Source: Cyanobacteria bacterium P01_D01_bin.156 (lineage in GTDB: Bacteria > Cyanobacteriota > Cyanobacteriia > Phormidesmidales > Phormidesmidaceae). From it: a stretch of 64,000 bases of DNA. The first letter of the stretch is position 1; the number at the start of each line of letters is the position of its first letter. This document shows positions 11,598-63,257 of the stretch, piece by piece. The position numbers and the translations under genes were made by a program. The DNA lies in assembly GCA_039024555.1 (NCBI GenBank), contig JBCCQQ010000029.1, forward strand, positions 8,132 through 72,131, given 5' to 3'. The notes under the pieces were generated by a model. It had not been told where the DNA came from. It did not search any database and saw only the letters and a program-made list of their open reading frames with translations.

Positions 11598-11843
11598 ATG
11601 ATTCACTCAGACGCACACCCTGTGTGGGAACCGATTGCCCCAACTGCTATGCCTATCGGGAAGCTGGCTCCTGCCAGTTTGCAGAGCGATCGCAACAATC
11701 TACCCCAGCTATCTGATATAGCAGTTCAACTTCTCAACGATCCGCTGCAGGTGCGTCGCCTCACGGAACGGGTGCATCAGCTTATGCAGGCAGATCTCCA
11801 CCTTCAGCATGAGCGTCTGGGGGGGTATGGATGTCGCCAATAA
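11598..11843 (+). CDS. Small CIS-associated protein (81 aa)
   Basis: Overlaps the start of the tube gene. Its C-terminal LTERVHQLMQADLHLQHERLG resembles the C-terminus of the 1959-aa protein. Confidence 0.7.
   Translation: MIHSDAHPVWEPIAPTAMPIGKLAPASLQSDRNNLPQLSDIAVQLLNDPLQVRRLTERVHQLMQADLHLQHERLGGYGCRQ
11686..11693. repeat. HIP1 octamer GCGATCGC (one example; many copies across 10.4-62.2 kb)
   Basis: Repeated exact GCGATCGC, e.g. 10476 and 11686, with many more in the CIS genes; hallmark of cyanobacterial genomes. Confidence 0.9.
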
Positions 11844-12850
11844 TCTTAAAACAAGGTCAGCAAATCCGCTCTCTTTATTTGAAAGCGCATCTTATTCGTA
11901 CTAAGGCGCTTAAAGCGCTTAAAAAAGCAAAACATAACCCCATAGCACTGGCCCATGCCAAAGCAGAGCTAGACAGGGCTCAACATATTCTTCAGAAAGT
12001 TCAAAAAAAGCATGAGCATTTTCTGAATAAGATTCCTCTTGAAATACTTCCCTGGGTTCAACCATCTGAGCAAGAGCAGTTATTGATTGCTCGGTCTGAG
12101 CAGGCTTATAACAGCTATCAACAGGATATCCATACCGTAGCTGAGAAAACCAAAAAATCTAAAAGAGACAAAACACGTGTAAAAAAAGAACCGAAACGTT
12201 TCCAAAAGGCCAAAAAGAATCGAGAAGCCCTGAGTTCAGCATTGGCAAAAACTCGCCAAGAGCAGCGCGCCCGAGCTAAATCTGTAGCCCATCGCGAATA
12301 TCGGGCGAATTATGTTCTTAGTCACCGTTTTTATGTCGAAATGGATGGCGTCATCCGAGCAGCGTTTAATGAATGTTCTGGCTTTGGGTTAGATATTAAA
12401 AAAGAGCTTTACCTAGAAGGTGGAGTGAATGAACAACAGCGGGTCATGCTAGGCCATGCTGAGTTTCAAGATACGGTATTGAAGCGAGGAATGACCAACG
12501 ATCCATCATTTTGGGCCTGGATGCATGAAGTATTAGTGGGACGTACATTGACAGCAACAGGCAAACGGCATAGTTCCTCGACTGTGGTTCGCACCCGACG
12601 AAATATCAATATTTTGATGATGAACCAGGCTGGGGCCATTATGCAGGTCTGTACTTTAGTAGGGGCCATTCCCATTGGGTGGAAAGCCCCTGCATTTCAG
12701 TCGGACAGCGCTACTGTGGCGATCGAAGAGATGACCGTAGCCTACGAAGGAATTCATCTTCAGTTTCAGACGGAAGCCGAGACCCTTGCGGCAGGTGGAG
12801 CTTCCACACTGCTATTGCGAGATGAGTTGGGCTTTTTTCCAGAAAATTAA
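11831..12850 (+). CDS. Phage-tail tube (T4 gp19/Afp1-Afp5-like) protein with ~155-aa basic helical N-terminal extension
   Basis: RFYVEMDG..AAFNECSG....EGGVN...VLKRGMT...FWAW...GAIPIGWKAP.....VAIEEMTVAYEG in the C-terminal half. Confidence 0.85.
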   Translation: MSPIILKQGQQIRSLYLKAHLIRTKALKALKKAKHNPIALAHAKAELDRAQHILQKVQKKHEHFLNKIPLEILPWVQPSEQEQLLIARSEQAYNSYQQDIHTVAEKTKKSKRDKTRVKKEPKRFQKAKKNREALSSALAKTRQEQRARAKSVAHREYRANYVLSHRFYVEMDGVIRAAFNECSGFGLDIKKELYLEGGVNEQQRVMLGHAEFQDTVLKRGMTNDPSFWAWMHEVLVGRTLTATGKRHSSSTVVRTRRNINILMMNQAGAIMQVCTLVGAIPIGWKAPAFQSDSATVAIEEMTVAYEGIHLQFQTEAETLAAGGASTLLLRDELGFFPEN

Positions 12851-12868
12851 TGTTTCTGTTGTATCAGT

Positions 12869-15800
12869 ATGTCTCGTTCTGCTCCCTCTGATCAGCCTAC
12901 ATTGTCTCTTAAATCATCTAGGGAGCAGCCTCAGGAGACCTTGGGGCCAGAGTATACGCAGCGAATTACTCCCCTAGGACAAACCTATATAACCCTAAAA
13001 CCGCTCCAGTCCTTTACTCAGTCAACTATTGCTGTATTGCAGCGACAGCCGCTAGGGCGATTACAACCCTGGTCAACGGATGGTTTGGCTAGCTTCAGCC
13101 AGCATTGGACAACCTCCGACTCTTCCATGGGAGAGATGGATACAGTACCGTCCGATTATGGTTCTTCGGTTCTTCAACCGCAGTTGTTCCCAGCTTCTCC
13201 ACAATCTACTGTTGCTTCTGAGATATCTCGACAACCCTATCATTCTCAGATTTCTTCAGAGGTGGAGGCTGATGCAGTTACTACACAAGATGTTCAGCGT
13301 CAGCTAGAACAGCGCCAACCCTATCCACTACCACCGAGTGAGTTACAGCAGAATGAATCGCATTCAGTCAGTCTAGCCGACGATGAATTTGCTGAGCCAA
13401 CGGTGGATTCACCCCATAAAGGGTCAACGGTACAGCGCTCTCCCTCTGTTTACTTGCCCAAGCCAGTACAGAGATCGCCCCAACTACAGCGTCAGATCAA
13501 GAGTAGCAAGTCGAAAATTTTGAGATCGCTCCAGTCCCCGCCGTCATCAGGTTCAACTAATTCCCTGCCTATAGCTAATACGGGGCCTGGGGTGAACCGT
13601 TCAGCACCATTGCTTGATCAAGCTGTTGCCTCCCATGGTGCCAGTGTGCCAAGCATTCAGGCCGATGCTATGCCAGGAATGGCTGGGGGGGAAAATACAC
13701 CTACAGTGAGAGTTGAACCGCAGGCGGGTATGCCTTCAGCTATGGAGGATAAGGGTCCAGGGAATATCGCCTCTGGGTCAACGTCTATACCGGATACTAA
13801 TCCAGTGGTGCAGCGGTCAGATTCAGGGAGTAGTGAACCTGAGTCGCGTGCGATCGCTAATAAAAACTTGTCCCGTTCCTCGAATGCTGCGATGGCTGCT
13901 GAGGTTGCACCGCCAGTGGCTAACGAGCCGTCACCGAGCATTGATGCGACAACGCATGTACAAGCTGTGGCAAAGCTACAGCAGCGCTCGGCAACTGTAA
14001 AGCAACAGGTACAACAGAGTAAACTTCGTAGCCTACAGCGTTTGCCAAGGGCCAGTAACCATGAGCCTCCTACCGATGCTCCGTCAGACGCTGCTGTAAG
14101 TTCCAATCCTGTCACCGTTGGTGAGGATTCAACCTCCCATAGCAGCAGTTTGAAAACAGGTTTAGAATCGGCTGCCAACCTACAGCTAAAGTCTGCTCAT
14201 GATTCGCAGAGTATACACAATAAACTATCTCGCTCTTTAGAGCCACCTGATCGGGCCGAGCCCCAAGCGACAAGTATTGTAGAGGGGAAAAGCACTGCTA
14301 GCGGGGAGATTCAGAACATACCTAATTCTGAAACATTTGAAAATTCTACCCAACAGATTTTAACAACAGGTCCTGGCACTGGCAGGGAGGCAAATATTCA
14401 ACGGATAGAGGAGGAACCTGCTACTACAGGACTAGGGAGTCAACAAACACCGAACATTGTTTCAGCTAGTAGTCAAAAAGTTGAGACTGAAGCGGATAAT
14501 ACCGTCCTTGAGACTAATACAATAGATTCGACGATTCAGCGAGTATCTCAGCCATCTGCTGTCCCAGCCCAACCGTTCCCAGCCAAGACTGCGAATACTG
14601 AGAATATAATGACTCAGCCGGTGTCCCAATCGACTCCAGCGAATGATCTATGGGCGGCCACTGAAAGAAATCAGGCTGAGGCGAGCGGGAATGTGTCAGG
14701 CTCAAGCATTCATCGGGCACCTCAAGTTGCTAGCGTGTCAGACTCCATGCAACAGATTAATACTGAAAATAGAGCAGTTAGGTCTAAGTCTGAGCTGACA
14801 GAATCTAATACTCAGTATTCTTCTGTAGATACGCAATCAGTTGAAACCAACATTGAGAATGCTGAGGTTAAGACTGATCTTACGGAACCAAAAATTCAGC
14901 AGTTAACTCAATCTGAATCGATTGGAGTTTCTGAACAACTCACTGAACCAGAAGAGTTTAGCTTTAAACCTAATATTCAAGAGAATGGTTTTAAACAATC
15001 GTCCCAATTACCCGCACAGCAGATTCAACGTGCTGAAACTGGAATAAAAGATGCCGAGGTTGAACCTGGTACAGCAGACTCAGAAGTTCAGCTTTTGCCG
15101 GATTCTTCAACTTTTCTAGCAGATACACAACAGATTAAACTCAAATCTGGCGAGCCTATTCTTGGGACTAATTTAACGCAACAAAATATCCAACGAGCTT
15201 CCCAGTTTTCTACAGCGACTGCACAGCAGGCTGCGGCTGAAAATATAAGCGCTGCCACTCATACTGGTTTAGAGCAATTAGATAGTCAGATATTAACTGA
15301 CAATACTGTTGCATCAGATAATATCCAACGGACTAAGGATAAAAGCACTGTCGCCAACACCCAGCCTTCTATTCAAGCAGTGCCGGTCAAGGTTCAACGT
15401 GGAGAAACTGGGCCAGCCGATGCGGCGCTTGTCTCTCTGGATGCTCCGGACTCGAAAACTCAGCAGGTATCCCAGTCTCCTTTGCTTTCTTCTAATATCC
15501 AACGACGTGAGACTCACCATAGCGGACACCCTTCTCCTCAAGACTTATCTCCAGTCGATGGGCTTTCATCAACCTTGCAACGGTTAGATACAGAAAACTC
15601 AAACGTGGAGCCTGATTCTAAGGAGAGAATGACTCAACCGTTGCCTCAGGATTCTCCTGGTCAAATTCAGAGGTCTGAAACGGTAGATATGACCGATGAA
15701 TTTGAGATTACTGATGTAGGCGAGTCGGCAGTGCAGCGATCGCAACGAGCTTCTTCATCGGATTTATCGTTATCGCAACTAATTACGGCAGCGACACCTA

Positions 15801-18748
15801 CCCATGAGACCAGGCCATCTGTGCAGCAGAAAGCTGATGAAAATCCTGTCCCGGCAACCATCTCATCTGCAAAACTGCCCAGAAATTCTCCCTCTGTTGA
15901 GAGCTCTGGGCAATTATCGCCTTTATCAACATCGTCTACAGCAGACGCTATCTCTACTGCCCAGGAAATTCAGCGTATGGATGCTGCGGGTGCAAGTTTG
16001 ATATCTTCATCCGAAAGCTCAACCATACCCTCGCCAGAGACGGCGGAACCCACGAAATATTCCCAAAGCATTGTTCCTGACCCAGCGCCTCTAACTCAAT
16101 CAACACCGCTCGCACCTGTTGAGTCAACTTCATCTGAGACTCTGCAACGAGCTATCGCTGATACGATAACGTCTGAAAATGATCAGGGTATAGGGGCTAA
16201 TCAACTGGCAATGTCGCCGTTGACCAATGCCTCAGAGCAAGGTACAGATATACCTAATGATGCAGGAAGTGCTCTCGCATCACGTCCAATGACGTCTGAG
16301 TCTACTGTGCCATTGCCGACAGACATTCAGAGAGAAACAGATGAGCTCTTGAGAAAAACGTCTGCAGCTAAATCAGACCCACAAAATATCATCAATTCAG
16401 TTCTATCTGCCGACTCTTCATCTCATCCGCTCCAGAGAGAACCGATGGATGGACCTGTTGTCAAAACTCAATCGACTACGCAGCAGGGTGGCAGTGCATT
16501 ATCATCAGATTCATTTTCTTCTGAGGGTATTATTCAGAGAGAATCCAATCATAGGTTAGATGTCTCTACAGCCGCCCCTATAACGGCTTCAGAGAAAAAT
16601 GATTCAGTACAGCTGGCAGCTGCTGGGAGTACACCCAAGGCAAATATCGGTAGTCAGCCAGAGTCTATACATCAAACACCAATCCTTGATCTTCCTGCAG
16701 AATCTCATAAAGAGCCTATGCATCAGGCTCCAGCTAATACCATTGTTAAGCCAGATGCTCAGAATTCAAATACGTTAGAGCTATCTGCACAGACTAATCT
16801 ACAGAGGAGTTCGACTAATCCATTAGAAGAATCTGCTCCTAAACCAGTGGAAAAAAGGCAGCGAGAACATTCCTCGATTGTGCCTGCTAATAGTTTGCAG
16901 AGGTCGTCTATTGAGCAGTCTACTGCACTATCAGATAGTGTAGTGGAAGATTTTTCTGTTAACGATGATTTAGACAATCAAGCACATCCGATAGAATCTT
17001 CTAGCTATCAGGCTGCTAATACCATTCAAAGACAGAAAGCGCCTACCCAGAGTACAGAGTCTAGAGCAGTTGTTCAAAAGGGAAACGGCGATCGGTTAGG
17101 CAATGATGGGAAAGGATCTGCTGCTGTTCCCAATAGTATTCAACTGCAAAATCTCAATGATGATATTCAGTCGTCTTCAGAGACCATAAACCCTTCTCTC
17201 CATCGTTCGGTAGATATGAAGGCTAAGACGCCATCATTTAAACTGGATACCCCTGGAGATACCCAAGAGAAATCTACGAAAAAACAAGAATATGATAATT
17301 TCAACTCGTCTGTCGCGAGCGATATTGAGCCAACTACAGCAACCTCTCATCAAGAGGCTCTCCAAAGAGACTCTGTTGCAGAACCAAGTAGATCCCTAGG
17401 ATTGAGAGAATCTTCTCATAGCCAGTCGTCTGAAGTCGATTTACAGCGTTCCGTAGACAATGACGCAACACACTTTAAAGATTCACTAGACAACGGACCA
17501 ATAGACTCCCTAACTCCCGCTGGAGAAACTGGTAACCTATATCCACAACAGGTATCGCACCAAGCATCACAGGCTGCTGATACTAGCATTCAGACTAGTA
17601 TTGCAAAAACGACGGCTTCGCTTCCACCTGAGACTGCTAAGAGTCAGCCATCGCAACATTTTTTGAAAGCGTCTACGAGCTCGGAAATATCGGATCTGCA
17701 AACAAGTACGTTAAATTCAGCTGATAAGGATACTAATTCGTCTGTTTCAGATAGCCAACGATTATCAGTATCCTCTGTTTCCAATGAGGCTAGGGTTACG
17801 AGGACCCAAGAGCAACAACAGTTGGATGTGTCCCCATCTAATGTATCGAGTATCGCGCTTTCTGAAGTGCGATCGCAACCTCCAACCCATCCGACACCGA
17901 CCACTCAGACTCCACAAGAGATCCAGCTGCTGTCTGAAAGCTCAATGAATGCTGTTGCTCGATCTTCAGCTACACCTGGTCTTTTATCACGATCTATTGT
18001 TCAAGAATCAGAGGATAATGACATACTACATCGATCTTCTGAGAATGAAAGTTCTTCTAGCATTAATTCCTCAGAGCTGACGGTGGCACAGCTCTTACGA
18101 CAAGACGCTCTTCCCATTCATCCCACCAATGTGGCAGCTGATATGGCGGTGATTCCAACCCATGCTAACGTGGTTCAACCAGCGTTAGTCGACGATATTG
18201 CTCCAGATACTGATGAGCCCGATGATGATTCTGACGATTTAGCTCGTTTCTTTAGCGGAGCAGCTCAAAAGCAACGTTCCAACGCTAGCAAAACTCGCCA
18301 CACTCAGCAAAAAAAACGTAAGAAAGATAAAAAGCAGTTGAACTTGCATCAGGCTCAATACTTACCTCCTGGAATATCAGGTGGTGTGCATGGAATCAGA
18401 AGCAGTCGGTTTATGGGACAGTCTGCTCAGTCAGCAGACAGGCTGCAGGAGTCGTTGTTTTCACGGGCACAAATTAAAGCAGAGGCAAATGCATATCAGG
18501 GAAGACACATCAAGAAAATTGACAAAGCAGAACTGGGGGATATTGCACCTAAGCTAGTGCCTGCTGTGGAAATGAGAAAATTTGAGACTCAGGAGAAACA
18601 GGATGATGAAAAATCTAAAGCTACTGATACGGTGGATGATAAATCGTTTGAACTGTTAGCACGAGAGGTCTATCACCTATTGCAACAGCGCTTAGCTGTC
18701 GAGCGAGAACGGTTTGGTGGTTACTATCGCGATCGCACTCGCTTTTAA
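12869..18748 (+). CDS. Giant low-complexity S/T/Q/P-rich protein with >20 [ILV]QR motifs (CIS-associated; tape-measure or cargo candidate)
   Basis: 1959-aa ORF between the tube and tube-initiator genes; C-terminal LAREVYHLLQQRLAVERERFG motif. Confidence 0.75.
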   Translation: MSRSAPSDQPTLSLKSSREQPQETLGPEYTQRITPLGQTYITLKPLQSFTQSTIAVLQRQPLGRLQPWSTDGLASFSQHWTTSDSSMGEMDTVPSDYGSSVLQPQLFPASPQSTVASEISRQPYHSQISSEVEADAVTTQDVQRQLEQRQPYPLPPSELQQNESHSVSLADDEFAEPTVDSPHKGSTVQRSPSVYLPKPVQRSPQLQRQIKSSKSKILRSLQSPPSSGSTNSLPIANTGPGVNRSAPLLDQAVASHGASVPSIQADAMPGMAGGENTPTVRVEPQAGMPSAMEDKGPGNIASGSTSIPDTNPVVQRSDSGSSEPESRAIANKNLSRSSNAAMAAEVAPPVANEPSPSIDATTHVQAVAKLQQRSATVKQQVQQSKLRSLQRLPRASNHEPPTDAPSDAAVSSNPVTVGEDSTSHSSSLKTGLESAANLQLKSAHDSQSIHNKLSRSLEPPDRAEPQATSIVEGKSTASGEIQNIPNSETFENSTQQILTTGPGTGREANIQRIEEEPATTGLGSQQTPNIVSASSQKVETEADNTVLETNTIDSTIQRVSQPSAVPAQPFPAKTANTENIMTQPVSQSTPANDLWAATERNQAEASGNVSGSSIHRAPQVASVSDSMQQINTENRAVRSKSELTESNTQYSSVDTQSVETNIENAEVKTDLTEPKIQQLTQSESIGVSEQLTEPEEFSFKPNIQENGFKQSSQLPAQQIQRAETGIKDAEVEPGTADSEVQLLPDSSTFLADTQQIKLKSGEPILGTNLTQQNIQRASQFSTATAQQAAAENISAATHTGLEQLDSQILTDNTVASDNIQRTKDKSTVANTQPSIQAVPVKVQRGETGPADAALVSLDAPDSKTQQVSQSPLLSSNIQRRETHHSGHPSPQDLSPVDGLSSTLQRLDTENSNVEPDSKERMTQPLPQDSPGQIQRSETVDMTDEFEITDVGESAVQRSQRASSSDLSLSQLITAATPTHETRPSVQQKADENPVPATISSAKLPRNSPSVESSGQLSPLSTSSTADAISTAQEIQRMDAAGASLISSSESSTIPSPETAEPTKYSQSIVPDPAPLTQSTPLAPVESTSSETLQRAIADTITSENDQGIGANQLAMSPLTNASEQGTDIPNDAGSALASRPMTSESTVPLPTDIQRETDELLRKTSAAKSDPQNIINSVLSADSSSHPLQREPMDGPVVKTQSTTQQGGSALSSDSFSSEGIIQRESNHRLDVSTAAPITASEKNDSVQLAAAGSTPKANIGSQPESIHQTPILDLPAESHKEPMHQAPANTIVKPDAQNSNTLELSAQTNLQRSSTNPLEESAPKPVEKRQREHSSIVPANSLQRSSIEQSTALSDSVVEDFSVNDDLDNQAHPIESSSYQAANTIQRQKAPTQSTESRAVVQKGNGDRLGNDGKGSAAVPNSIQLQNLNDDIQSSSETINPSLHRSVDMKAKTPSFKLDTPGDTQEKSTKKQEYDNFNSSVASDIEPTTATSHQEALQRDSVAEPSRSLGLRESSHSQSSEVDLQRSVDNDATHFKDSLDNGPIDSLTPAGETGNLYPQQVSHQASQAADTSIQTSIAKTTASLPPETAKSQPSQHFLKASTSSEISDLQTSTLNSADKDTNSSVSDSQRLSVSSVSNEARVTRTQEQQQLDVSPSNVSSIALSEVRSQPPTHPTPTTQTPQEIQLLSESSMNAVARSSATPGLLSRSIVQESEDNDILHRSSENESSSSINSSELTVAQLLRQDALPIHPTNVAADMAVIPTHANVVQPALVDDIAPDTDEPDDDSDDLARFFSGAAQKQRSNASKTRHTQQKKRKKDKKQLNLHQAQYLPPGISGGVHGIRSSRFMGQSAQSADRLQESLFSRAQIKAEANAYQGRHIKKIDKAELGDIAPKLVPAVEMRKFETQEKQDDEKSKATDTVDDKSFELLAREVYHLLQQRLAVERERFGGYYRDRTRF

Positions 18749-18817
18749 TATCTCCTAAGGTACAGGCTATTTTTCAACTATTCTCTATCATCATTACTCG
18801 TCTATTGAGGTTTTATT

Positions 18818-19744
18818 ATGGCTTCTAACAGCGGTTCTGGCAGTAAAATTGGCAGTAAATTAGCTAGCAGCGGTCTTCTTGGCAAGGCGGTGGAAGTTGT
18901 TGCCGCCGGGGCAGATATTTTGGCTACACAGCTAGCTAATGATCTTGCAAAAGACAAAGACGATAACTATGCAGCCTTTGAAAGTGCAGCCCAAGATGCT
19001 GTTATGGCTCGTTACAATCAACAATTTGTTGAAGGTAAACGCTTAGTCAAAGCTGCATTAATTCCTCGTAGTGGAGAATCGGCTCCGATCATTCGGTTTA
19101 TGTTTAACCCCACCGATTTACAATTTAGCCGTGCGGTGTCTATTGAAACGGTTAAGGGGGCACGGACGTTTCGGGGGCTACCTAAAGTGAATTTTGGCTT
19201 TATTGAACCCTATGAATTAAAGTTGGCGGGTCTGGTATTTGACACATTTGAAACTGGAGAAGATGTCTACAAGCTAATCAAACCCCTGCGCGATGCTGTA
19301 GACTTTAGCAGCTTTCAAGACCCCTTTAAAGAGAAAACAATTACAGATGAAAACGGTAATACTGTGACTTACAGTGAGCGTAGTGTCAAAACTAACGTTA
19401 CCAACGTGCTTGGGCAAAAAGCCCTAAATGCGGTTGCTGACACAGTCGCTAGTTTGGGAAATATGTCTGCTAGCGTTAATGCTGCTGGCTTTTTTGAATA
19501 CGGCACTGATCTAGATAAACAAGCCCTCGAATTGCGCCGTCCACCGGTGTTTTATTTTATTTGGGGTGAGCACAACTATATTCGCTGCATGGTTAAAGAT
19601 CTCAGCTTTAAGCTGACCATGTTTTTACCCAATGGTCGGCCCGTGCGAGCCATGGTAGACATGACTTTACAAGAGGTCGATCTGGGTGTTGCCAGCCATG
19701 CCCTCAGTGAGCGTTCAACGATTCTTGAGGTTAAGGCAAAGTAG
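18818..19744 (+). CDS. CIS tube-initiator protein (Afp7/CIS_tube-like), no LysM seen
   Basis: FMFNPTDL...LVFDTFE...RPPVFYFIWG...LTMFLPNGRPVRAMVDMTLQE; lies directly upstream of VgrG. Confidence 0.85.
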   Translation: MASNSGSGSKIGSKLASSGLLGKAVEVVAAGADILATQLANDLAKDKDDNYAAFESAAQDAVMARYNQQFVEGKRLVKAALIPRSGESAPIIRFMFNPTDLQFSRAVSIETVKGARTFRGLPKVNFGFIEPYELKLAGLVFDTFETGEDVYKLIKPLRDAVDFSSFQDPFKEKTITDENGNTVTYSERSVKTNVTNVLGQKALNAVADTVASLGNMSASVNAAGFFEYGTDLDKQALELRRPPVFYFIWGEHNYIRCMVKDLSFKLTMFLPNGRPVRAMVDMTLQEVDLGVASHALSERSTILEVKAK

Positions 19745-34276: not shown

Positions 34277-34278
34277 CC

Positions 34279-52830: not shown

Positions 52831-52886
52831 ATAGTGATGGTTTATTTCCTCGCCTATAAGAGAAAGGCAGCATTATTGGCGTGCCC

Positions 52887-53321
52887 ATGGTCAACACAAC
52901 ACAGCGGGTAACTACCTCCCATTTAGGACAGGGATTTGCTTTTCCCCTTGGCATTGGTCAGCAAGGATGTTTGACCCTCAGTGCCGAAGAGCAAAGTGTA
53001 CGGGAATCGGTTTGGCTAATTTTGTTGACGGAGCCAGGAGAACGACTCTACCGCCCAGAATTTGGGTGTCGCCTATCGGAACTAGCCTTTGCCCCCATCA
53101 ATTCGGAAACCCTAATGCTAATGCGCATTTGGGTACAAGAAGCCTTAGAACGCTGGGAGCCCCGGATCATTTTGGAAGAGGTCCAAGCCCGTCCCCAGGT
53201 AGAGCAGGGCATTGTGTACCTGATTATTAACTACCGTCTCAAGACCACCTACGAGCAACAGAGTCTGGTGTATCCGTTTTACCTGCAAGGAACGCCCCTC
53301 GAACCATCTGTAAACGGGTAG
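52887..53321 (+). CDS. GPW/gp25 baseplate wedge protein (Afp9-like)
   Basis: LGQGFAFP...VRESVWLILLTEPGERLYRPEFGCRL..L.FAP.......VQEALERWEPRI...LVYPFY. Confidence 0.93.
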   Translation: MVNTTQRVTTSHLGQGFAFPLGIGQQGCLTLSAEEQSVRESVWLILLTEPGERLYRPEFGCRLSELAFAPINSETLMLMRIWVQEALERWEPRIILEEVQARPQVEQGIVYLIINYRLKTTYEQQSLVYPFYLQGTPLEPSVNG

Positions 53322-55598: not shown

Positions 55599-56629
55599 TG
55601 GTGCAGTCCTATCGGTCTCCGGTGGCGTTAGATGTGGTTCCTATGCAGCTGCCAGATATGAATCTGGCCTATGGGACGGAGCTGTCAGCCGCGACAGATG
55701 ATTTAGCGGCAACCCAACCTGAGGATGCCAGTCTTGTACTGTATCCGGGAGAGCCCACTGAACTCATGTTGCGGCTGCGCAATGAGAGTGAGCGCCCCCT
55801 GAGGTTTGTTGTCCATTTCAACAGTATCTTTCCCGACGATTGGCAATTAACCCCTTTAGAGGACTACGAGCTGTTACCTGCCGCCCGCCAGCAGGTCACT
55901 CTGGTGTTTCAGGCCCCGACTGATTTTTTTGAAACGCTAACGGATGTGACTCCAGGTGAGCGTCGACCGCTGAACTACTCGGGGCGCTTAGATATTTATA
56001 GCTATACCCTGGCGGGGGATTTAGAGGACGTGATTTCAGAGCCGATCACCCTGATGGTTCGTCCCCACAGCTCCTACGCTAAACTGCTGCCCCAGGTGTA
56101 TCAAGAGATTGATTTGGTTAGCCGTTTAATGGCGGTGGTTGAGCGCACCTTTCGCCCCGATGTAGATACCTGGAATGCTCTCTGGGCCTATCTCAATCCT
56201 TTGATTGCCCCCCAAGCCATGTTGGGCTTTTTAGCCCATTGGGTGGGGTGGAAACGTCTGCCTCAACTGACCTGGGAACAACAGCGACGGCTGATCCATC
56301 GAGCCCTGGAACTGTACAGCTGGCGCGGAACAGCCCATGGCCTGCGATTGTTTTTGCATTTGGCAACGGGCTTACCGTTGGATGCTGATAATACGCCAGA
56401 AAGTCAAAAGCACATCAGCATTCTAGAACCGTCGTTGCAGGGAGCCGTATTTGGTGAATCCAGCTTACTGGAGACCACCGTATTTGGTGGAGCCCAACGG
56501 TTTCATTTCATTGTGGTGTTGCGTCCCCCCGCCGATATTACCCTCGATCAAAATCTGGTGCGGGCCATTATTGACCAGGAACGCCCCGCCTTTTGCACCT
56601 ATGAGTTGTATATCCATCCCCTGCCATGA
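55598..56629 (+). CDS. Baseplate / phage tail-I-like protein with N-terminal Ig-like domain
   Basis: LLPQVYQE.D...RLM......YLNP..AP...L.FLA.WVGW...QRRLI.RA..LY.WRGT..GL. Confidence 0.85.
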   Translation: MVQSYRSPVALDVVPMQLPDMNLAYGTELSAATDDLAATQPEDASLVLYPGEPTELMLRLRNESERPLRFVVHFNSIFPDDWQLTPLEDYELLPAARQQVTLVFQAPTDFFETLTDVTPGERRPLNYSGRLDIYSYTLAGDLEDVISEPITLMVRPHSSYAKLLPQVYQEIDLVSRLMAVVERTFRPDVDTWNALWAYLNPLIAPQAMLGFLAHWVGWKRLPQLTWEQQRRLIHRALELYSWRGTAHGLRLFLHLATGLPLDADNTPESQKHISILEPSLQGAVFGESSLLETTVFGGAQRFHFIVVLRPPADITLDQNLVRAIIDQERPAFCTYELYIHPLP

Positions 56630-57990
56630 CGACTGCCTCTTTGATTCCCCCAATGCCGACATTGGAACCGTTGCAGATGCTCTACGTGACCAATGGTTCA
56701 CCCCTGACGGCTGAACGTTGGTGGCTGGCCCATGACTATTATCAGCATCGACAGAATCTACACTATCAGTCGTTGCATCGGCCAGGAATTGTTAGGGGGC
56801 TGGGAGTACAAGTGATTTCTCCCCCAGACACGGTCTCCTCTGAGTTACGTGATCACCGCTGGGTCGAAGTTCAGCCAGGTATTGCCATTGATCTGATGGG
56901 CAACCCTATTGTTGTAGAAGAGCCCATTTCTTTTCGCATTACGACAGAGGTGATTGAGCATCCCATCACGGTGTATGTGGTGTTGGCCTATGTTAATCCT
57001 CGCCACAAGCAGTGGTCCAGCATTCCAGCCGATGTGGTGAAAGAAGAATTCCGCATTAATGAGCGTACCACCCCCCCGGCTCCGCAGGAAGTTGAGCTGT
57101 GTCGGTTAGTGCTTCAGGATAACCAAACGGCGCTAGGCAATGCTGTTCATGTGCTCACACCCACATCCCATGAATTAAATCTATGCCATCGTCAGTGGGC
57201 CCAGGCCAGGGCGGTGTATCCGGTCCAGGTGGGTTTTTTGGGGCAGGCCCAAGAGTCTCCCCATTGCGATCGCATCCGTGCCCTGCTGTCGGCCACCACG
57301 GGACTGTATCCGGCCCTGGCCAGTCCTCCGGTTGTTCAGGAGATTACCCTGAGTTCAGATGTACAACTGCAGCATTTAACGGTTCTGTTTATCCCTTACC
57401 AGCAAGTGGACGCCCTAAGCGAAAAAGAGCTCAGGCCGCTGCAGCAATATGTGGCTGAGGGCGGTACGGTGCTGGTTGAGTATATCGATGAACCTGGATC
57501 AGGCCCCAGCCTAAGCGAGCTACAACGGGTACAAACCGAGCTGCTGACAGCTTTGAATGATTTAGACAACGTTGAAGCCGGTTCCGATCTCGATCGGATG
57601 CGCCAAGACTTAGTCACCGAACTAGGCGATTGTCGTGCCGTGACCCAGGCTCAGCTCCAGGCTATTACCCAAACTCTCCATGGGTTAATGTCACCGCTGG
57701 GTGATGCAGCACCATCTGTCGTACCGCTACCTGTAGATCAGCCCTTTTGCTTCGATGAACTGCCAGTGTTACCGACGGGGCCGTTGCAATTACAGGCATG
57801 GGATGGTGTGGTGTTGGTTATTGGTGATCTATCGGCGGCTTGGACCAGCCAACAATTTGATCAGCCCCTTGCTCGTGACACACTGCGCAGCGCCCAGGAA
57901 CTGGGCATCAATATTTTGTACCAGGCTAGCCAGCGCCAACAGCTTAAACAGGCACAGATGGGCTCAGACTTGGAGGTGATTCCAGCATGA
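56626..57990 (+). CDS. DUF4159-containing baseplate-associated protein
   Basis: N-terminal NG..LTAERW..AH.Y...RQN.HYQSLH.PGIV.GL.V...V.PG.AID..G; C-terminal GDLSAAW.......R..LRSAQELGINIL. Confidence 0.72.
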   Translation: MTTASLIPPMPTLEPLQMLYVTNGSPLTAERWWLAHDYYQHRQNLHYQSLHRPGIVRGLGVQVISPPDTVSSELRDHRWVEVQPGIAIDLMGNPIVVEEPISFRITTEVIEHPITVYVVLAYVNPRHKQWSSIPADVVKEEFRINERTTPPAPQEVELCRLVLQDNQTALGNAVHVLTPTSHELNLCHRQWAQARAVYPVQVGFLGQAQESPHCDRIRALLSATTGLYPALASPPVVQEITLSSDVQLQHLTVLFIPYQQVDALSEKELRPLQQYVAEGGTVLVEYIDEPGSGPSLSELQRVQTELLTALNDLDNVEAGSDLDRMRQDLVTELGDCRAVTQAQLQAITQTLHGLMSPLGDAAPSVVPLPVDQPFCFDELPVLPTGPLQLQAWDGVVLVIGDLSAAWTSQQFDQPLARDTLRSAQELGINILYQASQRQQLKQAQMGSDLEVIPA

Positions 57991-59402
57991 ATCTTTTGCG
58001 ATCGCGCTTCTCTATCACCCTAGTGATCAACTTTTTGTTTGTTACAGCCATCTCGTTAGGCACGGCCAGTCTGTTGAACTATCACGTGACCCGCCGTGAC
58101 TTGATTCGCCAAACCCAGGTTAACCTACGCAACGAAAGCCGAGAGCTTTCTCTTTTGGTGGGGGAACTAGTCCTAGAACATATTGAACTTCTTGAAACCC
58201 TCTCCATTGATGGCATTATTCGTAACGAGCTGCGTGCCATTAATCAAACCTATGGTCAGAACCTGGGTGAAATTGTGTCCCAATTGGAGCAACGCAATGA
58301 TCAATGGATAAATGCGCCTGATGAAGATCCTTTTGTGCAAAGTATCCTAAAAAGCCCTATTAGTTACGAGTTAGAAGAGTTTGTCAAACTGTTTCCCGAC
58401 TATAGCGACGTACTGATTACCGATCGCTACGGAGCATTAATGGGGGCAACCCAGCATATGGATGACTATTACCAAGGAGATGAAACCTGGTGGCAAACCG
58501 TTTGGAATGAGGGTAAAGGAGCGATCTATGTCAGTCAGCCATTTCTAGAAGAGACACTACAAGTATATGTGACTGAGATTGCAGTGCCGGTCTATAAAGA
58601 TGGGACTGTGGTAGGAGTGTTACACGGTTATTATCGTTTAGATCGAGCATTGACCAAGGTGCTAGAGACCATAGAGTTTGAGACTGGGGGCAGTCGCCTC
58701 TATATTTCAGACAGTGAGTATCTAGGAGCGGAGGGTATTCAGACAGATGCCCCACTGTCACCGGCCATATTGGCCAATACCCTAGGGGGCACCCTTCCCT
58801 ACGAAGGGCAGTCAACATTTCTAAGTGCAGAACCTGTTCATGCCATTACGGAAACCAATGGGGCTAAAGGCAAATTAGTTGATCAGGCGATTGAGACGCT
58901 GCATTGGTATGTTGTGGTTTATCAAAGTAGTGCAGAAGCCCTGCAGCCCCTTACCAATGCAGCCCGTGTGGCTTTAATTACTGCCGGTGGGGCGCTGATC
59001 CTAGCCGTTGTTTTAGGCATTGTGCTAGCGCAAATTGTCAGTAATCCTATCCGGCTGCTGATCCGTACTGCACAAAAGGTTCAGTCCGATACAGTAACGA
59101 GTAATGACCTAAAACAGCTCGACAAGATTGCTAGTAAAAATGACGATATGGGAGAACTTGCCTCTGTTTTTCGAGATATGTCTCTAGTGATTATGGAGCG
59201 GGAAGAGAGCCTAGCCAATGAGATTGCCTCCCTGCAGGCCCAGGTCGAGTCGGGTAGTCAACAAGCAAATGATCTAGAGTTGGCCTATTACGAGGCCTTG
59301 CGAAAAAAAGCTGGCTGGCTGAGGCAACAGTTTTTAAGTGACGATTTACTTCATCAGAGGATGGAGGCAATAGATCTTAAAAAAACGGTTCACCGTTCTT
59401 AA
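57987..59402 (+). CDS. Membrane sensor TM-dCache-TM-HAMP with no output domain
   Basis: Two TM helices; ITDRYG...DYYQGDETWWQ.....G.IYVS; HAMP NPIRLL...DDMGELASVF; short tail. ATGA-coupled to the DUF4159 gene. Confidence 0.82.
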   Translation: MNLLRSRFSITLVINFLFVTAISLGTASLLNYHVTRRDLIRQTQVNLRNESRELSLLVGELVLEHIELLETLSIDGIIRNELRAINQTYGQNLGEIVSQLEQRNDQWINAPDEDPFVQSILKSPISYELEEFVKLFPDYSDVLITDRYGALMGATQHMDDYYQGDETWWQTVWNEGKGAIYVSQPFLEETLQVYVTEIAVPVYKDGTVVGVLHGYYRLDRALTKVLETIEFETGGSRLYISDSEYLGAEGIQTDAPLSPAILANTLGGTLPYEGQSTFLSAEPVHAITETNGAKGKLVDQAIETLHWYVVVYQSSAEALQPLTNAARVALITAGGALILAVVLGIVLAQIVSNPIRLLIRTAQKVQSDTVTSNDLKQLDKIASKNDDMGELASVFRDMSLVIMEREESLANEIASLQAQVESGSQQANDLELAYYEALRKKAGWLRQQFLSDDLLHQRMEAIDLKKTVHRS

Positions 59403-59602: not shown

Positions 59603-61009
59603 ATGGTATCTCTTTCTATTCGTAAGACAATTCCCCTAATGATTGTTACCCCCTTGGTGGTGGCAATTGCTGTATTTGGAAGTCTTTCGCTTTACTATGG
59701 ACGGCGATCCATCAATCAGCTCTCAGAAGATCTGATGCAGAGCACAACAAACCACATTCAAGACCAGCTCAGTGGTCTGATGCATGAACCGGTATTGATT
59801 AATAGTATCAATGCAAATGCGATCGCTAACGGTGAATTAAAGCTAACCGACTGGTCCCAGTGGGGAAGCTATTTTGCCAGTCAACTGCAGGCAGCCACCC
59901 ACAGTAACTATATTTATGCAGGCAGTGAACAGGGCTATTTTGTTGGCAGTGAGCGTACCCCAGAGGATCTATTAGTTGCCCTGTCCGATGAGAAAAGTCA
60001 GGGACGCATCTATCAATATCACATCAAAGATTCTGGGGATATGGCCGCCAAGCCGTTTGACCACTACGACTATGACCCCCGTGTGCGTCCCTGGTATCAG
60101 GCGGCAGTGGCTGCAAAACAGCCCATCTGGAGCAATGTTTATCTCGGGTTTACGGCTAAAGAACTGTTGATTACAGCGGCCCATCCCATCTATAGCGATC
60201 GCAATCAATTGATCGGTGTCTTGGGTACCGATATGTTTATCAGCCAGATGAATCACTTTCTTAACGAATTGGAAGTGGGAAAAACGGGAGAAGTGTTTAT
60301 TGTGGAACCCGATGGACTGCTGGTGGCTAGCTCCATTGGAGAAACAGTAAATGTTGCAGCATCCACGGCTGTTCCTAGCGAAACTGTTGAAGCCACCCGC
60401 ATTTCTGCGCTAAAGAGCCCTGAGCCCATACTCCGTGACGCCACTCAACAGTTGTTACAGGAGTATGGCGATCTCTCCAGTATTCGCACCAATATCCGCA
60501 TTACTCGACAAGTCGCCGGTCAACGAATGTTTATTGCCGGTCGTCCTCTCTACGATCAGCTGGGTTTGGAATGGTTGATTGTCGTTGCCGTACCGACCAG
60601 CAACTTTACGGGGCCACTGCGTATCCAAACCCTGAGCATGCTGATTTTTGCAGCCTTTTCCCTCACCATTGTTTGTGGCTTAGGCTGGCTGGCGGCCCGC
60701 TGGATTGTTACCCCTGTGCTACAGCTCCATACCATTGCTGTGGATGTAAAAGCTCAACAGTATATTCCCCATAGTATGGATCATTTAGTCCAGCGAAAAG
60801 ATGAAATTGGGCAATTTGCAGGGGTCTTTTCCGAAATGGCTGAAATTATTAGCCAACGAGAAGAAAGCTTAGAAGAACAACTCAAGTATCTACGGTTACG
60901 GGCACCCATGCCAGATAGTTATCATGCTCCCGATTTATCTGAGCTGCGCACCCTGCAACAGAAAGCTAAAGTTATTCGCGAGATGCATAGAACCCCCTCA
61001 GCAGAATGA
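59603..61009 (+). CDS. Membrane sensor TM-dCache-TM-HAMP with no output domain
   Basis: YDPRVRPWYQAA.....IWS.VY (dCache_1); HAMP TPVLQL...DEIGQFAGVF; short tail. Confidence 0.85.
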   Translation: MVSLSIRKTIPLMIVTPLVVAIAVFGSLSLYYGRRSINQLSEDLMQSTTNHIQDQLSGLMHEPVLINSINANAIANGELKLTDWSQWGSYFASQLQAATHSNYIYAGSEQGYFVGSERTPEDLLVALSDEKSQGRIYQYHIKDSGDMAAKPFDHYDYDPRVRPWYQAAVAAKQPIWSNVYLGFTAKELLITAAHPIYSDRNQLIGVLGTDMFISQMNHFLNELEVGKTGEVFIVEPDGLLVASSIGETVNVAASTAVPSETVEATRISALKSPEPILRDATQQLLQEYGDLSSIRTNIRITRQVAGQRMFIAGRPLYDQLGLEWLIVVAVPTSNFTGPLRIQTLSMLIFAAFSLTIVCGLGWLAARWIVTPVLQLHTIAVDVKAQQYIPHSMDHLVQRKDEIGQFAGVFSEMAEIISQREESLEEQLKYLRLRAPMPDSYHAPDLSELRTLQQKAKVIREMHRTPSAE

Positions 61010-61070
61010 GCGCATTAGCCCCTAAGTTAGTAACGGCATTAATGTCGCGTATTCCACCCAGGAGATTCCC

Positions 61071-63257
61071 ATGGTAGTCAGTGTTATCCAAAGTCGCATA
61101 TCAACAACGGAGCTAACCATTAAGCCCGGTCAGGCTATCGCTACATTTGATGTAGAGGTGATAAACAATAGCAACCGCCATGCCAGCTTTTATATTGTGC
61201 TCACCGCGACTGGTGCCACTGACCAGCCCCCCCGCTGCTGGTATCGTTTATCCCCCATGTCGTCCTCTATGGTGCCACCGGGAACCCGTAGCACTTACCA
61301 GGCCAGCATTATTGACACACCACTTCAGGGCTTTGTGGGATTAGCCAACATTACAGTGCGAATTATTTCGCCCGAGCTACACTCAGAAGAACGGCATGTG
61401 CTACGGTTACGTGTCGCTCCAGGTTTAGGAACCGCTGCTCTCACAGTTGAGCTACCCACATCCACATTCCAAGACTATCCTGGACAGTTGGTGGAGATTC
61501 CAGCCCGGATTTACAATGGTAGCCGCAACCCCATTACAGGAACACTGTCCTGCCCAGGGCTGGATGACTGGCTTACGGACCAATGTTCCCGCCAGGTAAT
61601 GCTGTTGCCTAACCGTTGGCAAGATCTGTTGGTGCCCTGTCAAATTCCTGAAGAAATGTCCCTGGCCCATAGTCAGGATTATCCGTTTCAGATTGTCGTT
61701 GTGGATGAGGATGGCACATCCGCCATGGCTTCCGGTGTTCTATCCGTCTTGCCCCTAGGGCATTGTGCATTGACTGCTGTGGATACGGTTTTGCGTCTAC
61801 CCCCCAGCCGATGGTGGTGGCCCAATCGCCAGTGCGATACCACCCACACTCAGCTACAGGTAACCAACCACAGTAATTTGACCAATGTGGTGCATTTGGG
61901 AAGTACGCCAGACGACAAACCTGGGTTATCTTATACTGTTGCGTTTGAGGATCAGGCGGTTTCCCTGCCCCCTGGGCAAGCCAAAACCGTTGATACCATC
62001 ATTGAGGTAAAGCGTCCCTGGTTTGGCTGGGTGCGTACCCTTTGGATAGATCTGCAAAATCAATTAGAGGATTCCCGCTTAGATCTTCAGGATGAAACGG
62101 CGATTCTGAAGGTGAAAGTGGCTCCCATTTTGCCCCGTTGGCTGCAGCTGGGTATGCTGCTGTGGTTGGTCGGTGCGATCGCTGGCGTGTGGTTTTGGAC
62201 TGTTCATCGTCAGCACCATCATCAGCTCGTGAGTTCAGTTCAATTTAATGGTGTGGGGGATCGTGTGGTCAGTAGCTCCGCCGATCAAACCATCCGTCAG
62301 TGGCAGGTAAAACAATGGAGTCTTCGTCCATTTAATTCTATTATCCAACTCAATAAAGCGGTACGTGTTTCCCAGTATCGTCCGGTAGATAACAATCAGC
62401 TCGTAGTGGGATTAGAAAATGGTGAAATCCAAATTTGGGATTTGTTGCAGTTTTCTCGAGAACCTCGCCAAACGTTGGTCAGTGGTCAGCAGGTGGATGA
62501 TCGGGTAATGGCCCTTACCTTCAGTGCTGATTCTCGCTCTGTATTTAGTGGGCACGGGAGCGGGCGCGTGAATCGCTGGTATGTCGGGCCAGACTCTGAT
62601 GGACAAAATTCTGTTACCCAGGAACCTGTTCAACAGTTGACACTGCCCGACTTTTCTGTTTCCGATCTGATATTGATGGGGAAAGATCAGACAATCTTAG
62701 CCATCGCTGGACGCTATAACAAACTAATACTTTGGCCTTGGTCAGATAAACACTCTGCTCTGGATGCTCAGACAGAGGATTTTCAGACAGATAATACAGT
62801 TACCGTTACTAACTACCCAACGGGGGGAAAAGATGATTACATCACCAGTGTAGCTACAGCTGAACAAAATCCCTTGCGCTTAATTACAGCTGATAATCAA
62901 GGTCGCATCATGGTGTGGAATCTTGCGGGATGTGTGGATCAGCCTAATGAATGCGCCATTGTTGACCAGTGGATAGTACCTACCCAGGCTCCTATTAGAG
63001 ATATCGCATTGAGTGCCAATGGCTGCTATCTAGTTAGCGCTAGCGATGATGGACAGCTTATTCTCTGGCCGCTTACCAATCAAGGCCGACGATTCAATAA
63101 ATATTTGCAAGGCCAAACAATTAAACGGATCAATACTGGATTTAACAGCGTGGATATCAAAGTAATGCAGAAGTATAATCTAATTACCAGTGGAGCAGAT
63201 GATTCCCAAGTTCGCATGCACCGCTTTAAGGCACCTACTCAGACCTGTCTGCTCTAA
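61071..63257 (+). CDS. Bitopic membrane protein: N-terminal Ig-like domains, TM helix, C-terminal WD40 propeller
   Basis: TM WLQLGMLLWLVGAIAGVWFW; SSSADQTIRQW, GLENGEIQIWD, TADNQGRIMVWN, SASDDGQLILW, SGADDSQVR. Confidence 0.85.
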   Translation: MVVSVIQSRISTTELTIKPGQAIATFDVEVINNSNRHASFYIVLTATGATDQPPRCWYRLSPMSSSMVPPGTRSTYQASIIDTPLQGFVGLANITVRIISPELHSEERHVLRLRVAPGLGTAALTVELPTSTFQDYPGQLVEIPARIYNGSRNPITGTLSCPGLDDWLTDQCSRQVMLLPNRWQDLLVPCQIPEEMSLAHSQDYPFQIVVVDEDGTSAMASGVLSVLPLGHCALTAVDTVLRLPPSRWWWPNRQCDTTHTQLQVTNHSNLTNVVHLGSTPDDKPGLSYTVAFEDQAVSLPPGQAKTVDTIIEVKRPWFGWVRTLWIDLQNQLEDSRLDLQDETAILKVKVAPILPRWLQLGMLLWLVGAIAGVWFWTVHRQHHHQLVSSVQFNGVGDRVVSSSADQTIRQWQVKQWSLRPFNSIIQLNKAVRVSQYRPVDNNQLVVGLENGEIQIWDLLQFSREPRQTLVSGQQVDDRVMALTFSADSRSVFSGHGSGRVNRWYVGPDSDGQNSVTQEPVQQLTLPDFSVSDLILMGKDQTILAIAGRYNKLILWPWSDKHSALDAQTEDFQTDNTVTVTNYPTGGKDDYITSVATAEQNPLRLITADNQGRIMVWNLAGCVDQPNECAIVDQWIVPTQAPIRDIALSANGCYLVSASDDGQLILWPLTNQGRRFNKYLQGQTIKRINTGFNSVDIKVMQKYNLITSGADDSQVRMHRFKAPTQTCLL

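What the first reader, a model, noticed from the sequence alone, without database searches (positions are those of the whole stretch)
11598..63257. Large, rearranged cyanobacterial contractile injection system with membrane anchors, sensors and chaperoned cargo
Seen: near-complete CIS core (sheath, tubes, initiator, VgrG, gp25, J, tail-I, DUF4255, AAA+) in five alternating-strand blocks. No recognisable receptor-binding tail fibre or T6SS membrane complex. It carries several TM proteins, three sensor-like proteins, a regulator and three DUF4157 proteins. Known: Anabaena has a thylakoid-anchored CIS. Inference: this is a membrane-anchored CIS with an unusually large sensing and cargo module.
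Basis: partly seen in the sequence, partly recalled or inferred. Interest (0 to 1): 0.8.

Follow-up and report, generated by a model that had tools for sequence, protein, structure and literature searches.

The report
Streptomyces-type injection system in cyanobacteria
This cyanobacterial gene cluster encodes a phage-tail-like syringe of the Streptomyces lineage (subtype IId), not the known thylakoid-anchored type, plus a widely conserved set of membrane proteins and receptors that likely dock and trigger it inside the cell.

Summary
The CIS core is real, its frames are open, and it lies in five alternating-strand blocks. It is not an Anabaena-type tCIS: sheath and baseplate trees place it in a cyanobacterial clade beside Streptomyces subtype IId loci, and the tCIS crown, cage, Cis12 extension and membrane helix are missing.

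There is a fibre-position gene: a baseplate-anchor-like N-terminus plus DUF4159, next to Cis12 in 73 of 76 loci. The two Ig/TM 'anchors' are homologues of Streptomyces CIS-locus membrane proteins of the Sco4256-58 effector type.

The accessory genes do track the core. Among 49 good genomes the same 22 carry baseplate, adaptor and Ig/TM/WD40 genes. A membrane pseudokinase is in 20 of the 22. Cache-type receptors without enzymatic output sit inside the baseplate operon in 21 of 45 loci.

Cyanobacterial IId loci and Sco4256 homologues are already catalogued; my searches found no paper on this adaptor-receptor module. Best reading: an intracellular CIS that docks on a membrane and fires on a periplasmic signal. 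Docking, trigger and target are inferred.

The parts
11598..11843 (+). 81-aa conserved small protein; C-terminal helix resembles the end of the 1959-aa protein
   Evidence: homologues precede the initiator tube gene in many loci
11831..12850 (+). gp19 tube protein with N-terminal extension (Cis1b/5-like initiator tube)
   Evidence: PF06841 E 2.8e-31
12869..18748 (+). 1959-aa low-complexity Ser/Gln/Thr/Pro protein with conserved C-terminal helix; candidate length ruler or lumen filler (inferred)
   Evidence: 27 [IVL]QR motifs; the same slot holds proteins of about 750-2600 aa in relatives
18818..19744 (+). Cis7 tube initiator
   Evidence: PF19266 E 7e-15; no LysM hit
19930..21897 (+). VgrG-related spike (single ORF)
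   Evidence: NF033848 over cut-off; best PDB hit 9gtr
21907..24429 (-). zinc-ribbon-like / pseudokinase / single TM (462-480) / PBP-fold protein
   Evidence: PF12849; TM; no catalytic Asp in 10 of 10 homologues; in 20 of 22 good genomes with the IId baseplate
24491..25780 (-). YbjN-domain protein directly after the DUF4157 cargo gene; candidate chaperone
   Evidence: PF10722 26.4 bits, cut-off 22; follows DUF4157 genes in G032, G027 and own contigs C24, C36
25795..32922 (-). 2375-aa cargo candidate, three DUF4157 domains and a hydrophobic helical region (Tme-like build)
   Evidence: orthologue in G032, 56% over 1696 columns
32966..34321 (-). 451-aa protein, lead to an ABBA aromatic prenyltransferase-like fold
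   Evidence: Atlas lead only; found beside the CIS only in G032 among fetched loci
34392..35164 (-). two tail-assembly-chaperone-like genes
   Evidence: homologues annotated 'phage tail assembly protein' in Brasilonema and Pseudanabaena loci
35168..36987 (-). three gp19 tube genes
   Evidence: PF06841
37138..38892 (-). contractile sheath
   Evidence: PF04984/PF17482; PDB 8bky 384 bits vs All3325 195 bits
39508..40236 (+). LuxR/GerE response regulator, divergent from the sheath operon
   Evidence: homologues beside CIS in several loci
40233..41531 (+). Cis16/Pvc16 cap (DUF4255)
   Evidence: PF14065 E 1.9e-42
41528..43504 (+). Cis15 AAA+ ATPase
   Evidence: PF00004
43495..47064 (+). 1189-aa DUF4157 cargo candidate with hydrophobic hairpin
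47330..49807 (+). 825-aa DUF4157 cargo candidate with Gly/Ala-rich helices
49826..50266 (+). small YbjN-like protein after the cargo gene
   Evidence: PF10722 20.7 bits, below the 22 cut-off
50263..52710 (-). 3 Ig / TM (379-402) / 3 Ig single-pass protein, Sco4256-58-type homologue
   Evidence: AF2 pLDDT 81; family HMM hits Streptomyces CIS-locus TM proteins at E 6e-14 and 1.5e-10
52881..53321 (+). gp25/Cis9
   Evidence: PF04965
53337..55598 (+). baseplate J/Cis11, 753 aa, no cage extension
   Evidence: TIGR02243; 9gtp 354 bits, no 7b5h hit
55598..56629 (+). Tail_P2_I-type Cis12 with an extra N-terminal region
   Evidence: TIGR02242; only PDB hit 9gtp_E
56626..57990 (+). fibre-position adaptor: baseplate-anchor-like N-terminal domain plus DUF4159 domain, no TM
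   Evidence: weak Foldseek hits to TssK
57987..59402 (+). dCache-HAMP receptor with coiled-coil tail, no enzymatic output
59603..61009 (+). second dCache-HAMP receptor with the same tail
61071..63257 (+). Ig-type N-terminus / TM (357-375) / WD40 propeller single-pass protein, paralogue of 50263-52710
   Evidence: WD40; hhalign probability 99.1, E 5.5e-19 to the Ig/TM/Ig family

Best explanation
The locus encodes a subtype IId contractile injection system that likely assembles in the cytoplasm, docks on the producer's own membrane and fires on a signal from outside that membrane. Shown by sequence: a full sheath-tube-spike-baseplate-cap set of the Streptomyces lineage; a fibre-position adaptor; two paralogous single-pass Ig proteins; a membrane pseudokinase; two Cache-HAMP receptors with no enzymatic output; three DUF4157 proteins. 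Inferred steps: (1) the LuxR regulator switches on the divergent operons; (2) DUF4157 cargo, helped by YbjN-type proteins, loads via the spike and initiator; (3) the adaptor binds Cis12 by its N-terminal domain and reaches the cytoplasmic Ig domains of the single-pass proteins; (4) receptors and pseudokinase pass the signal by protein contact, not phosphotransfer; (5) contraction puts hydrophobic cargo into the cell's own membrane, giving regulated cell death as in Streptomyces. The spike tip is likely borrowed from a paralogous locus or dispensable.
For: Lineage: sheath tree, window in a 24-row cyanobacterial clade (SH-aLRT 100) sister to two Streptomyces sheaths (87), with tCIS orthologues and Afp in a separate clade (100). 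J tree: cyanobacteria (100) plus Streptomyces and Deinococcus (98), including Calothrix NIES-4101, named as an IId carrier in PMC6899500. Co-occurrence: of 49 genomes at least 90% complete and at most 5% contaminated, the same 22 have J, adaptor and Ig/TM/WD40, and 0 of the other 27 have the last two. Gene order: adaptor follows Cis12 in 73 of 76 named loci; Ig/TM/WD40 within four genes in 38 of 61. The adaptor-IgWD-IgTM trio also stands apart from a baseplate on own contig C15 and in G019 and G027. Receptor gene between adaptor and IgWD in 21 of 45 loci; of 8 scanned, 6 end in a cNMP-binding domain and 2 in none, with no kinase, cyclase or MCP signalling domain. Streptomyces IId particles are cytoplasmic and kill the producer (PMC10066040, PMC10020575) and need a membrane protein to fire (PMC12237407). 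No lectin or fibre-shaft domain was found on the adaptor.
Against: No experiment on any cyanobacterial IId system was found. In S. coelicolor, deleting sco4256-58 leaves most tubes empty (PMC10066040), which argues that this family is lumen cargo or a loading factor rather than a dock. In 23 of 61 loci IgWD is not within four genes of the adaptor. No homologue of the CisA-like proteins of two Streptomyces loci was found among window and paralogue proteins. The TssK likeness is weak (Foldseek E 0.007-0.03, mixed with unrelated hits). The Cache family as a whole is in 53 of 61 genomes, and short forms also occur away from CIS genes. Membrane topology is assumed; charge bias around the TM helices is not consistent. 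36 of the 60 comparison genomes are one family, so the counts are not independent.
Confidence: 0.5

Rival explanations
1. A stably membrane-anchored, T6SS-like machine: the adaptor acts as TssK does, the two Ig/TM proteins form a dedicated membrane complex, and the tube is fired outward or across septa at neighbours.
For: Four TssK chains among the 50 Foldseek ranks for the adaptor (ranks 8, 19, 35, 47). PMC12923769 reports that Tail_P2_I resembles TssG and eBAP3 resembles TssK. Fixed adaptor-IgWD-IgTM order. A haloarchaeal CIS acts as a T6SS and has a candidate membrane anchor gene (PMC11566945). FHA genes lie beside some relatives.
Against: The TssK hits are weak. No outer-membrane or lipoprotein partner was recognised in the locus. 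No IcmF/TssM match in the genome. Streptomyces and Roseiflexus IId particles are reported as cytoplasmic (PMC10066040, PMC12998442).
Confidence: 0.2
2. A released eCIS: particles leave by lysis, the DUF4159 adaptor is a short receptor-binding fibre, and the Ig/TM and DUF4157 proteins are all toxic cargo.
For: The gene lies in the fibre position, and its N-terminal domain matches post-Cis12 genes of other lineage II loci (E 2e-10 to 4e-6). DUF4157 marks eCIS toxins (PMC8213781). Sco4256-58 are toxic in E. coli (PMC10066040).
Against: The adaptor's C-terminus is an alpha/beta domain (best hit 4i66, E 1e-4) and is conserved across cyanobacteria, unlike variable receptor-binding tips. It does not explain membrane receptors inserted in the baseplate operon.
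Confidence: 0.2
3. An Anabaena-type tCIS held in thylakoid pores.
For: Cyanobacterial host, many membrane proteins; which membrane they use is untested.
Against: Different clade. No crown, cage or Cis12-extension homologue. No conserved TM on the Cis13-position protein.
Confidence: 0.05
4. A decaying, shuffled remnant with passenger genes.
For: No spike-tip gene; detached and inverted spike block; transposase-like remnant at the contig end; two paralogous IId loci elsewhere could cover the function.
Against: All core frames are open and full length. The same order and 52-87% identity for most genes in G032. Split layouts occur even in a one-contig genome (G050).
Confidence: 0.05

Closest known systems
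Streptomyces coelicolor CISSc and related subtype IId cytoplasmic CIS (PMC10066040, PMC10020575, PMC12237407)
   Same: Sister clade in sheath and J trees; single VgrG ORF, single J, Tail_P2_I-type Cis12, Cis16 + AAA + LuxR block, large low-complexity gene before the initiator, Sco4256-type single-pass proteins, no classical fibre.
   Different: Three tube genes in the sheath operon; no LysM hit on Cis7; the gene after Cis12 is a soluble DUF4159 adaptor instead of CisA; the Ig/TM proteins have an extra N-terminal Ig and end in WD40 or Ig arrays instead of ricin lectin; added pseudokinase and Cache receptors; Gram-negative envelope.
Catalogued cyanobacterial IId loci (Calothrix NIES-4101 in PMC6899500; Cylindrospermum and Microcoleus Sco4256 homologues in PMC10020575 Supplementary Data 4)
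   Same: Same clade; a Calothrix NIES-4101 locus has the same gp25-J-Cis12-adaptor-two receptors-IgWD order.
   Different: Here all three modules and three DUF4157 genes lie in one 52-kb stretch; the accessory module is not described in the text I read.
Anabaena PCC 7120 tCIS (PMC8894136)
   Same: Cyanobacterial CIS, DUF4157 cargo candidates, proposed link to cell death.
   Different: Groups with Afp in my trees; anchored by a Cis13 TM helix and Cis12 extension, with Cis11 cage and Cis19 crown, none of which is found here.
Roseiflexus/Deinococcus IId CIS (PMC12998442)
   Same: Subtype IId, cytoplasmic, no close CisA homologue. A Deinococcus aquaticus locus has a kinase-Ig-TM-Ig fusion that matches both Ig/TM families (E 2e-16, 5e-15).
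   Different: Separate subclade; the adaptor HMM gave no significant hit in that Deinococcus locus.
T6SS baseplate-membrane link (TssG-TssK-TssL/M) and the haloarchaeal T6SS-like CIS (PMC11566945)
   Same: Possible functional analogy; weak fold likeness of the adaptor to TssK.
   Different: No IcmF/TssM match; gp19-type tubes, J baseplate and Cis16 cap mark it as eCIS-lineage.

Membership tests
eCIS superfamily (PMC6899500) | Afp11/J plus Afp1/5-type tubes plus sheath | tested here: met
eCIS subtype IId | Afp11 phylogeny with Streptomyces IId loci | tested here: met
   J tree support 98, includes Calothrix NIES-4101; quick tree, 25 rows, references chosen by me
eCIS subtype IId | single afp11 copy and single contiguous afp8 ORF | tested here: met
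   criteria from section 10 of PMC6899500
eCIS subtype IId | afp10 (PAAR-like tip) listed as present in IId | tested here: not met
   none seen in the window; one DUF4280 gene at a paralogous locus; one named Streptomyces IId locus also shows no annotated PAAR gene, so this is not treated as decisive
eCIS subtype IId | Sco4256-type single-pass protein in the locus | tested here: met
   HMM hits to Streptomyces CIS-locus proteins of that build, E 6e-14 and 1.5e-10 among 1045 frames; Sco4256 itself was not available for direct comparison
Streptomyces cytoplasmic CIS | CisA membrane adaptor after Cis12 | tested here: not met
   no phmmer hit of two CisA-like proteins among 226 window and paralogue proteins
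Streptomyces cytoplasmic CIS | free cytoplasmic particles, producer cell death | not testable with these tools
   needs cryo-ET and mutants
Anabaena tCIS | sheath and Cis11 in the All3325/All3317 clade | tested here: not met
Anabaena tCIS | Cis13 with C-terminal transmembrane helix | tested here: not met
   max 19-residue hydropathy 1.24; 1.07-1.74 across 22 homologues
Anabaena tCIS | Cis19 crown, Cis11 cage, Cis12 extension | tested here: not met
   tCIS orthologues from G015 (All3314-like, 1047 bits; All3317-like; 1296-aa Cis12-position gene) give no phmmer hit in the window at E 0.01; J is 753 aa vs 1231, Cis12 343 aa
Anabaena tCIS | location in thylakoid pores | not testable with these tools
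   needs cryo-ET
T6SS i-iii | TssJLM membrane complex | tested here: not met
   PF06761 IcmF not found in the genome; TssJ and TssL not searched genome-wide; no such NCBIfam hit in the window
eBAP3 fibre class (PMC12923769) | about 200-aa shoulder domain downstream of Tail_P2_I, TssK-like | tested here: inconclusive
   position and size fit; TssK hits weak; eBAP profiles not available; DUF4159 not found in that paper's text or in 5 searchable supplements
prophage tail | head, terminase and tape-measure genes; sheath among phage sheaths | tested here: not met
   no such Pfam hits; P2-like sheath is distant

The most novel reading that the evidence does not exclude
Cyanobacterial IId systems are a membrane-docked CIS class with their own envelope machinery: a TssK-like DUF4159 adaptor ties the baseplate to a complex of two Sco4256-family single-pass proteins, and swappable periplasmic receptors without enzymatic output plus a membrane pseudokinase trigger firing by direct contact. 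This would be a T6SS-like design built independently, and would recast Sco4256-type 'effectors' as docking or trigger parts.
Probability: 0.25. Interest if true: 0.8.

Novelty: new variant of a known kind. Interest (0 to 1): 0.55.

Why it matters
How fibre-less IId particles reach a membrane and are triggered is open even in Streptomyces, where binding of CisA to the particle is unconfirmed (PMC12237407). The role of most cyanobacterial CIS clusters is unknown (PMC8894136). This variant is widespread: 273 adaptor matches in the species-level genome collection, with named hits in Nostoc, Calothrix, Acaryochloris, Spirulina and Planktothrix. It names specific candidate dock, receptor and cargo genes, so the trigger question and CIS-driven cell death in cyanobacteria become testable by simple deletions.

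Full report
OBSERVATION. The window is the last 64 kb of a 72-kb contig of a 6.6-Mb genome, 99% complete. The closest named relatives of its CIS proteins are cyanobacterial. From 11598 to 63257 the genes form five alternating-strand blocks. Pfam and NCBIfam confirm sheath, four gp19 tubes, Cis7, VgrG, gp25, J, tail-I, Pvc16/DUF4255, AAA+, LuxR, three DUF4157 proteins, two dCache-HAMP proteins, a PBP-domain protein, a WD40 protein and two YbjN-like proteins, one of them below the cut-off. All core frames are open. No spike-tip gene was seen; one DUF4280 gene sits at another CIS locus of the genome.

LINEAGE. The sheath scores 384 and 375 bits on PDB 8bky and 8bl4 against 195 on Anabaena All3325. 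J scores 354 bits on 9gtp and does not hit the tCIS entry 7b5h. That 8bky, 8bl4 and 9gtp are Streptomyces structures is recalled; the tool gave no organism. To avoid leaning on that, I built trees with named Streptomyces, Deinococcus, Serratia Afp and Aureibacter loci and a tCIS orthologue from relative G015, checked at 659 bits to All3325, 1190 to All3317 and 1047 to All3314. Sheath tree (60 rows, quick search): the window lies in a 24-row cyanobacterial clade (SH-aLRT 100), sister to Streptomyces (87); tCIS-type rows join Afp (100). J tree (25 rows, quick): cyanobacteria (100) with Streptomyces and Deinococcus (98). It includes Calothrix NIES-4101, which PMC6899500 names as carrying IId loci. 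The single VgrG ORF and single J also fit IId. The tCIS anchoring parts described in PMC8894136 are a Cis13 TM helix, a Cis12 extension, a Cis11 cage and a Cis19 crown; none is found. The genome has two more IId loci (C16, C24) and a fourth CIS of another type (C26).

REARRANGEMENT. Relatives show three modules: sheath-tubes, initiator-spike, and baseplate-membrane. They are colinear in C16, G034 and G005, and lie at 0.45, 1.51 and 4.30 Mb in the one-contig genome G050. G032 has the window's order from the pseudokinase to the WD40 gene, with its spike block on another contig. The shuffling is a family trait.

THE FIBRE-POSITION GENE. 56626-57990 matches a CIS13-family model at its N-terminus (E 1.1e-9, well below cut-off) and carries DUF4159 in many relatives. 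The genome collection gave 273 matches; the best 80 were fetched. Cis12 is the upstream neighbour in 73 of 76 loci with enough flank (4 dropped). AF2 (pLDDT 78) gives a helix-plus-beta N-terminal domain and an alpha/beta C-terminal domain with a coiled-coil insert. Foldseek's best hit is 4i66 (E 1e-4); four TssK chains and one tCIS baseplate chain appear only weakly (E 0.007-0.03) among unrelated hits. The N-terminal profile hits post-Cis12 genes of other lineage II loci at E 2e-10 to 4e-6 and the tCIS crown only at E 0.48 (318 targets). This fits the eBAP3/Tail_P2_I baseplate type of PMC12923769, but I could not run their profiles.

THE 'ANCHORS'. 50263-52710 folds as three Ig domains, one TM helix and three more Ig domains. 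61071-63257 is its paralogue up to the TM helix (probability 99.1) and ends in a WD40 propeller. A family HMM hits the Ig-Ig-TM proteins of two Streptomyces CIS loci, one with a ricin lectin end (E 6e-14, 1.5e-10), and a Deinococcus kinase-Ig-TM fusion, among 1045 frames. That build is the Sco4256-58 type, whose loss leaves about 85% of tubes empty and abolishes CIS-dependent death in S. coelicolor (PMC10066040). PMC10020575 already lists two cyanobacterial homologues. So 'anchor' is a hypothesis that competes with 'effector'. For a docking role: fixed position after the adaptor (38 and 34 of 61 loci; 19 dropped for short flank), survival of the trio away from a baseplate, and a folded propeller that is probably too wide for a tube lumen (my inference). 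Against: 23 of 61 loci lack the adjacency.

SENSORS. The two Cache-HAMP proteins stop after a short coiled-coil tail. A related receptor gene lies between adaptor and WD40 gene in 21 of 45 named loci that show both. Of 8 scanned, 6 have dCache and 2 a Tll0287-like sensor; 6 end in a cNMP-binding domain and 2 in nothing; none has a kinase, cyclase or MCP output. A tail profile hits the two window genes best and two other frames weakly among 12,941 frames of the genome; the window genes were in the profile. The wider Cache family is general (53 of 61 genomes). The 840-aa protein is 37% identical to a Brasilonema CIS-locus protein annotated as a Ser/Thr kinase, lacks the catalytic Asp in 10 of 10 homologues, and sits inside the core operon in C24, G019, G027 and G045. 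LuxR regulators and DUF4157 are known eCIS companions (PMC8213781).

CO-OCCURRENCE. In 61 genomes: J 30, adaptor 29, IgWD N-terminus 30, pseudokinase 32. Among the 49 good genomes the first three mark the same 22. The pseudokinase is in 20 of those and in 3 others, two of which show other IId parts. I tallied these overlaps by hand from the tables. Kinship inflates them.

MECHANISM. Shown: gene content, lineage, domain build, co-occurrence. From published relatives: cytoplasmic particles, membrane-dependent firing, and DUF4157 proteins binding the spike (PMC12237407, PMC11126660, PMC13277306). Inferred: adaptor-membrane docking, contact-based triggering, self-directed killing (0.5). Rivals: T6SS-like anchoring (0.2), released eCIS (0.2), tCIS-like (0.05), remnant (0.05).

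LITERATURE SEEN. PMC8894136: parts 1-3 of 8. PMC12237407: passages and sections 6, 7. PMC10020575: passages, section 11, a supplement search and one supplement part. PMC6899500: passages and section 10. PMC12923769: passages and a supplement search, one scanned PDF unreadable. Passages only: PMC10066040, PMC12998442, PMC11566945, PMC13277306, PMC11126660, PMC8213781. Searches for DUF4159 + contractile, contractile injection + Nostoc + baseplate + IId, and contractile injection + cyanobacterial + Cache domain returned 0 papers; searches listed no study of a cyanobacterial IId system. The library misses most subscription papers. Figures and unseen supplements of PMC6899500 (subtype-specific genes) and PMC12923769 may already show the adaptor.

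VERDICT. A real and widespread cyanobacterial variant of the subtype IId CIS. The lineage is known; the adaptor-receptor-membrane module appears undescribed and untested. Interest 0.55.

Noticed in passing
window 3-7664 (-): Protein of at least 2554 aa with DUF4114, an S8 subtilase-like domain and a very long coiled-coil region; runs off the window.
   Followed up: no
window 8433-11021 (+): EAD4-NACHT-NCH2 protein next to the spike block. NACHT genes also lie near the C16 baseplate operon and the G034 locus, but the genome has many NACHT homologues.
   Followed up: partly
window 63473-63838 (+): HTH-type, IS630-like transposase fragment near the contig end (the IS630 label is my recall); the locus may continue beyond the break.
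   Followed up: no
window 32966-34321 (-): Possible ABBA prenyltransferase-like gene between the chaperone genes and the largest DUF4157 cargo gene; same place in G032.
   Followed up: partly
G000 C16, C24, C26, C15, C5, C36: Four CIS loci in one genome (three IId, one with split VgrG and two sheaths), plus orphan adaptor-IgWD-IgTM, AAA-DUF4157-pseudokinase and DUF4157-YbjN cassettes.
   Followed up: partly
L156:16350-18695, L159:16525-18954: A TPR-CHAT protease gene directly follows the Ig/TM/Ig gene in these two Nostocales loci; similar-sized genes stand there in several others. A possible link to programmed cell death.
   Followed up: partly
L086:10097-15870; L001:9707-12542; L146:11406-13942: FHA-domain genes beside IId loci: next to a kinase-Ig-TM-Ig fusion in Deinococcus aquaticus, next to the pseudokinase homologue in Brasilonema, and after the adaptor in a Chroococcidiopsis locus. 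Reminiscent of PpkA/Fha1 control of T6SS (recalled).
   Followed up: partly
L065-L069 (G034, G005, G015): Several relatives carry both a IId system and a tCIS-clade system; in G005 the two lie on one contig about 30 kb apart.
   Followed up: partly
L002:1-17248: A Pseudanabaena plasmid carries a IId CIS beside nif, psbA and bchE genes.
   Followed up: no
window 28000-28431: Lys/Asp-rich tandem repeats inside the 2375-aa cargo gene.
   Followed up: no
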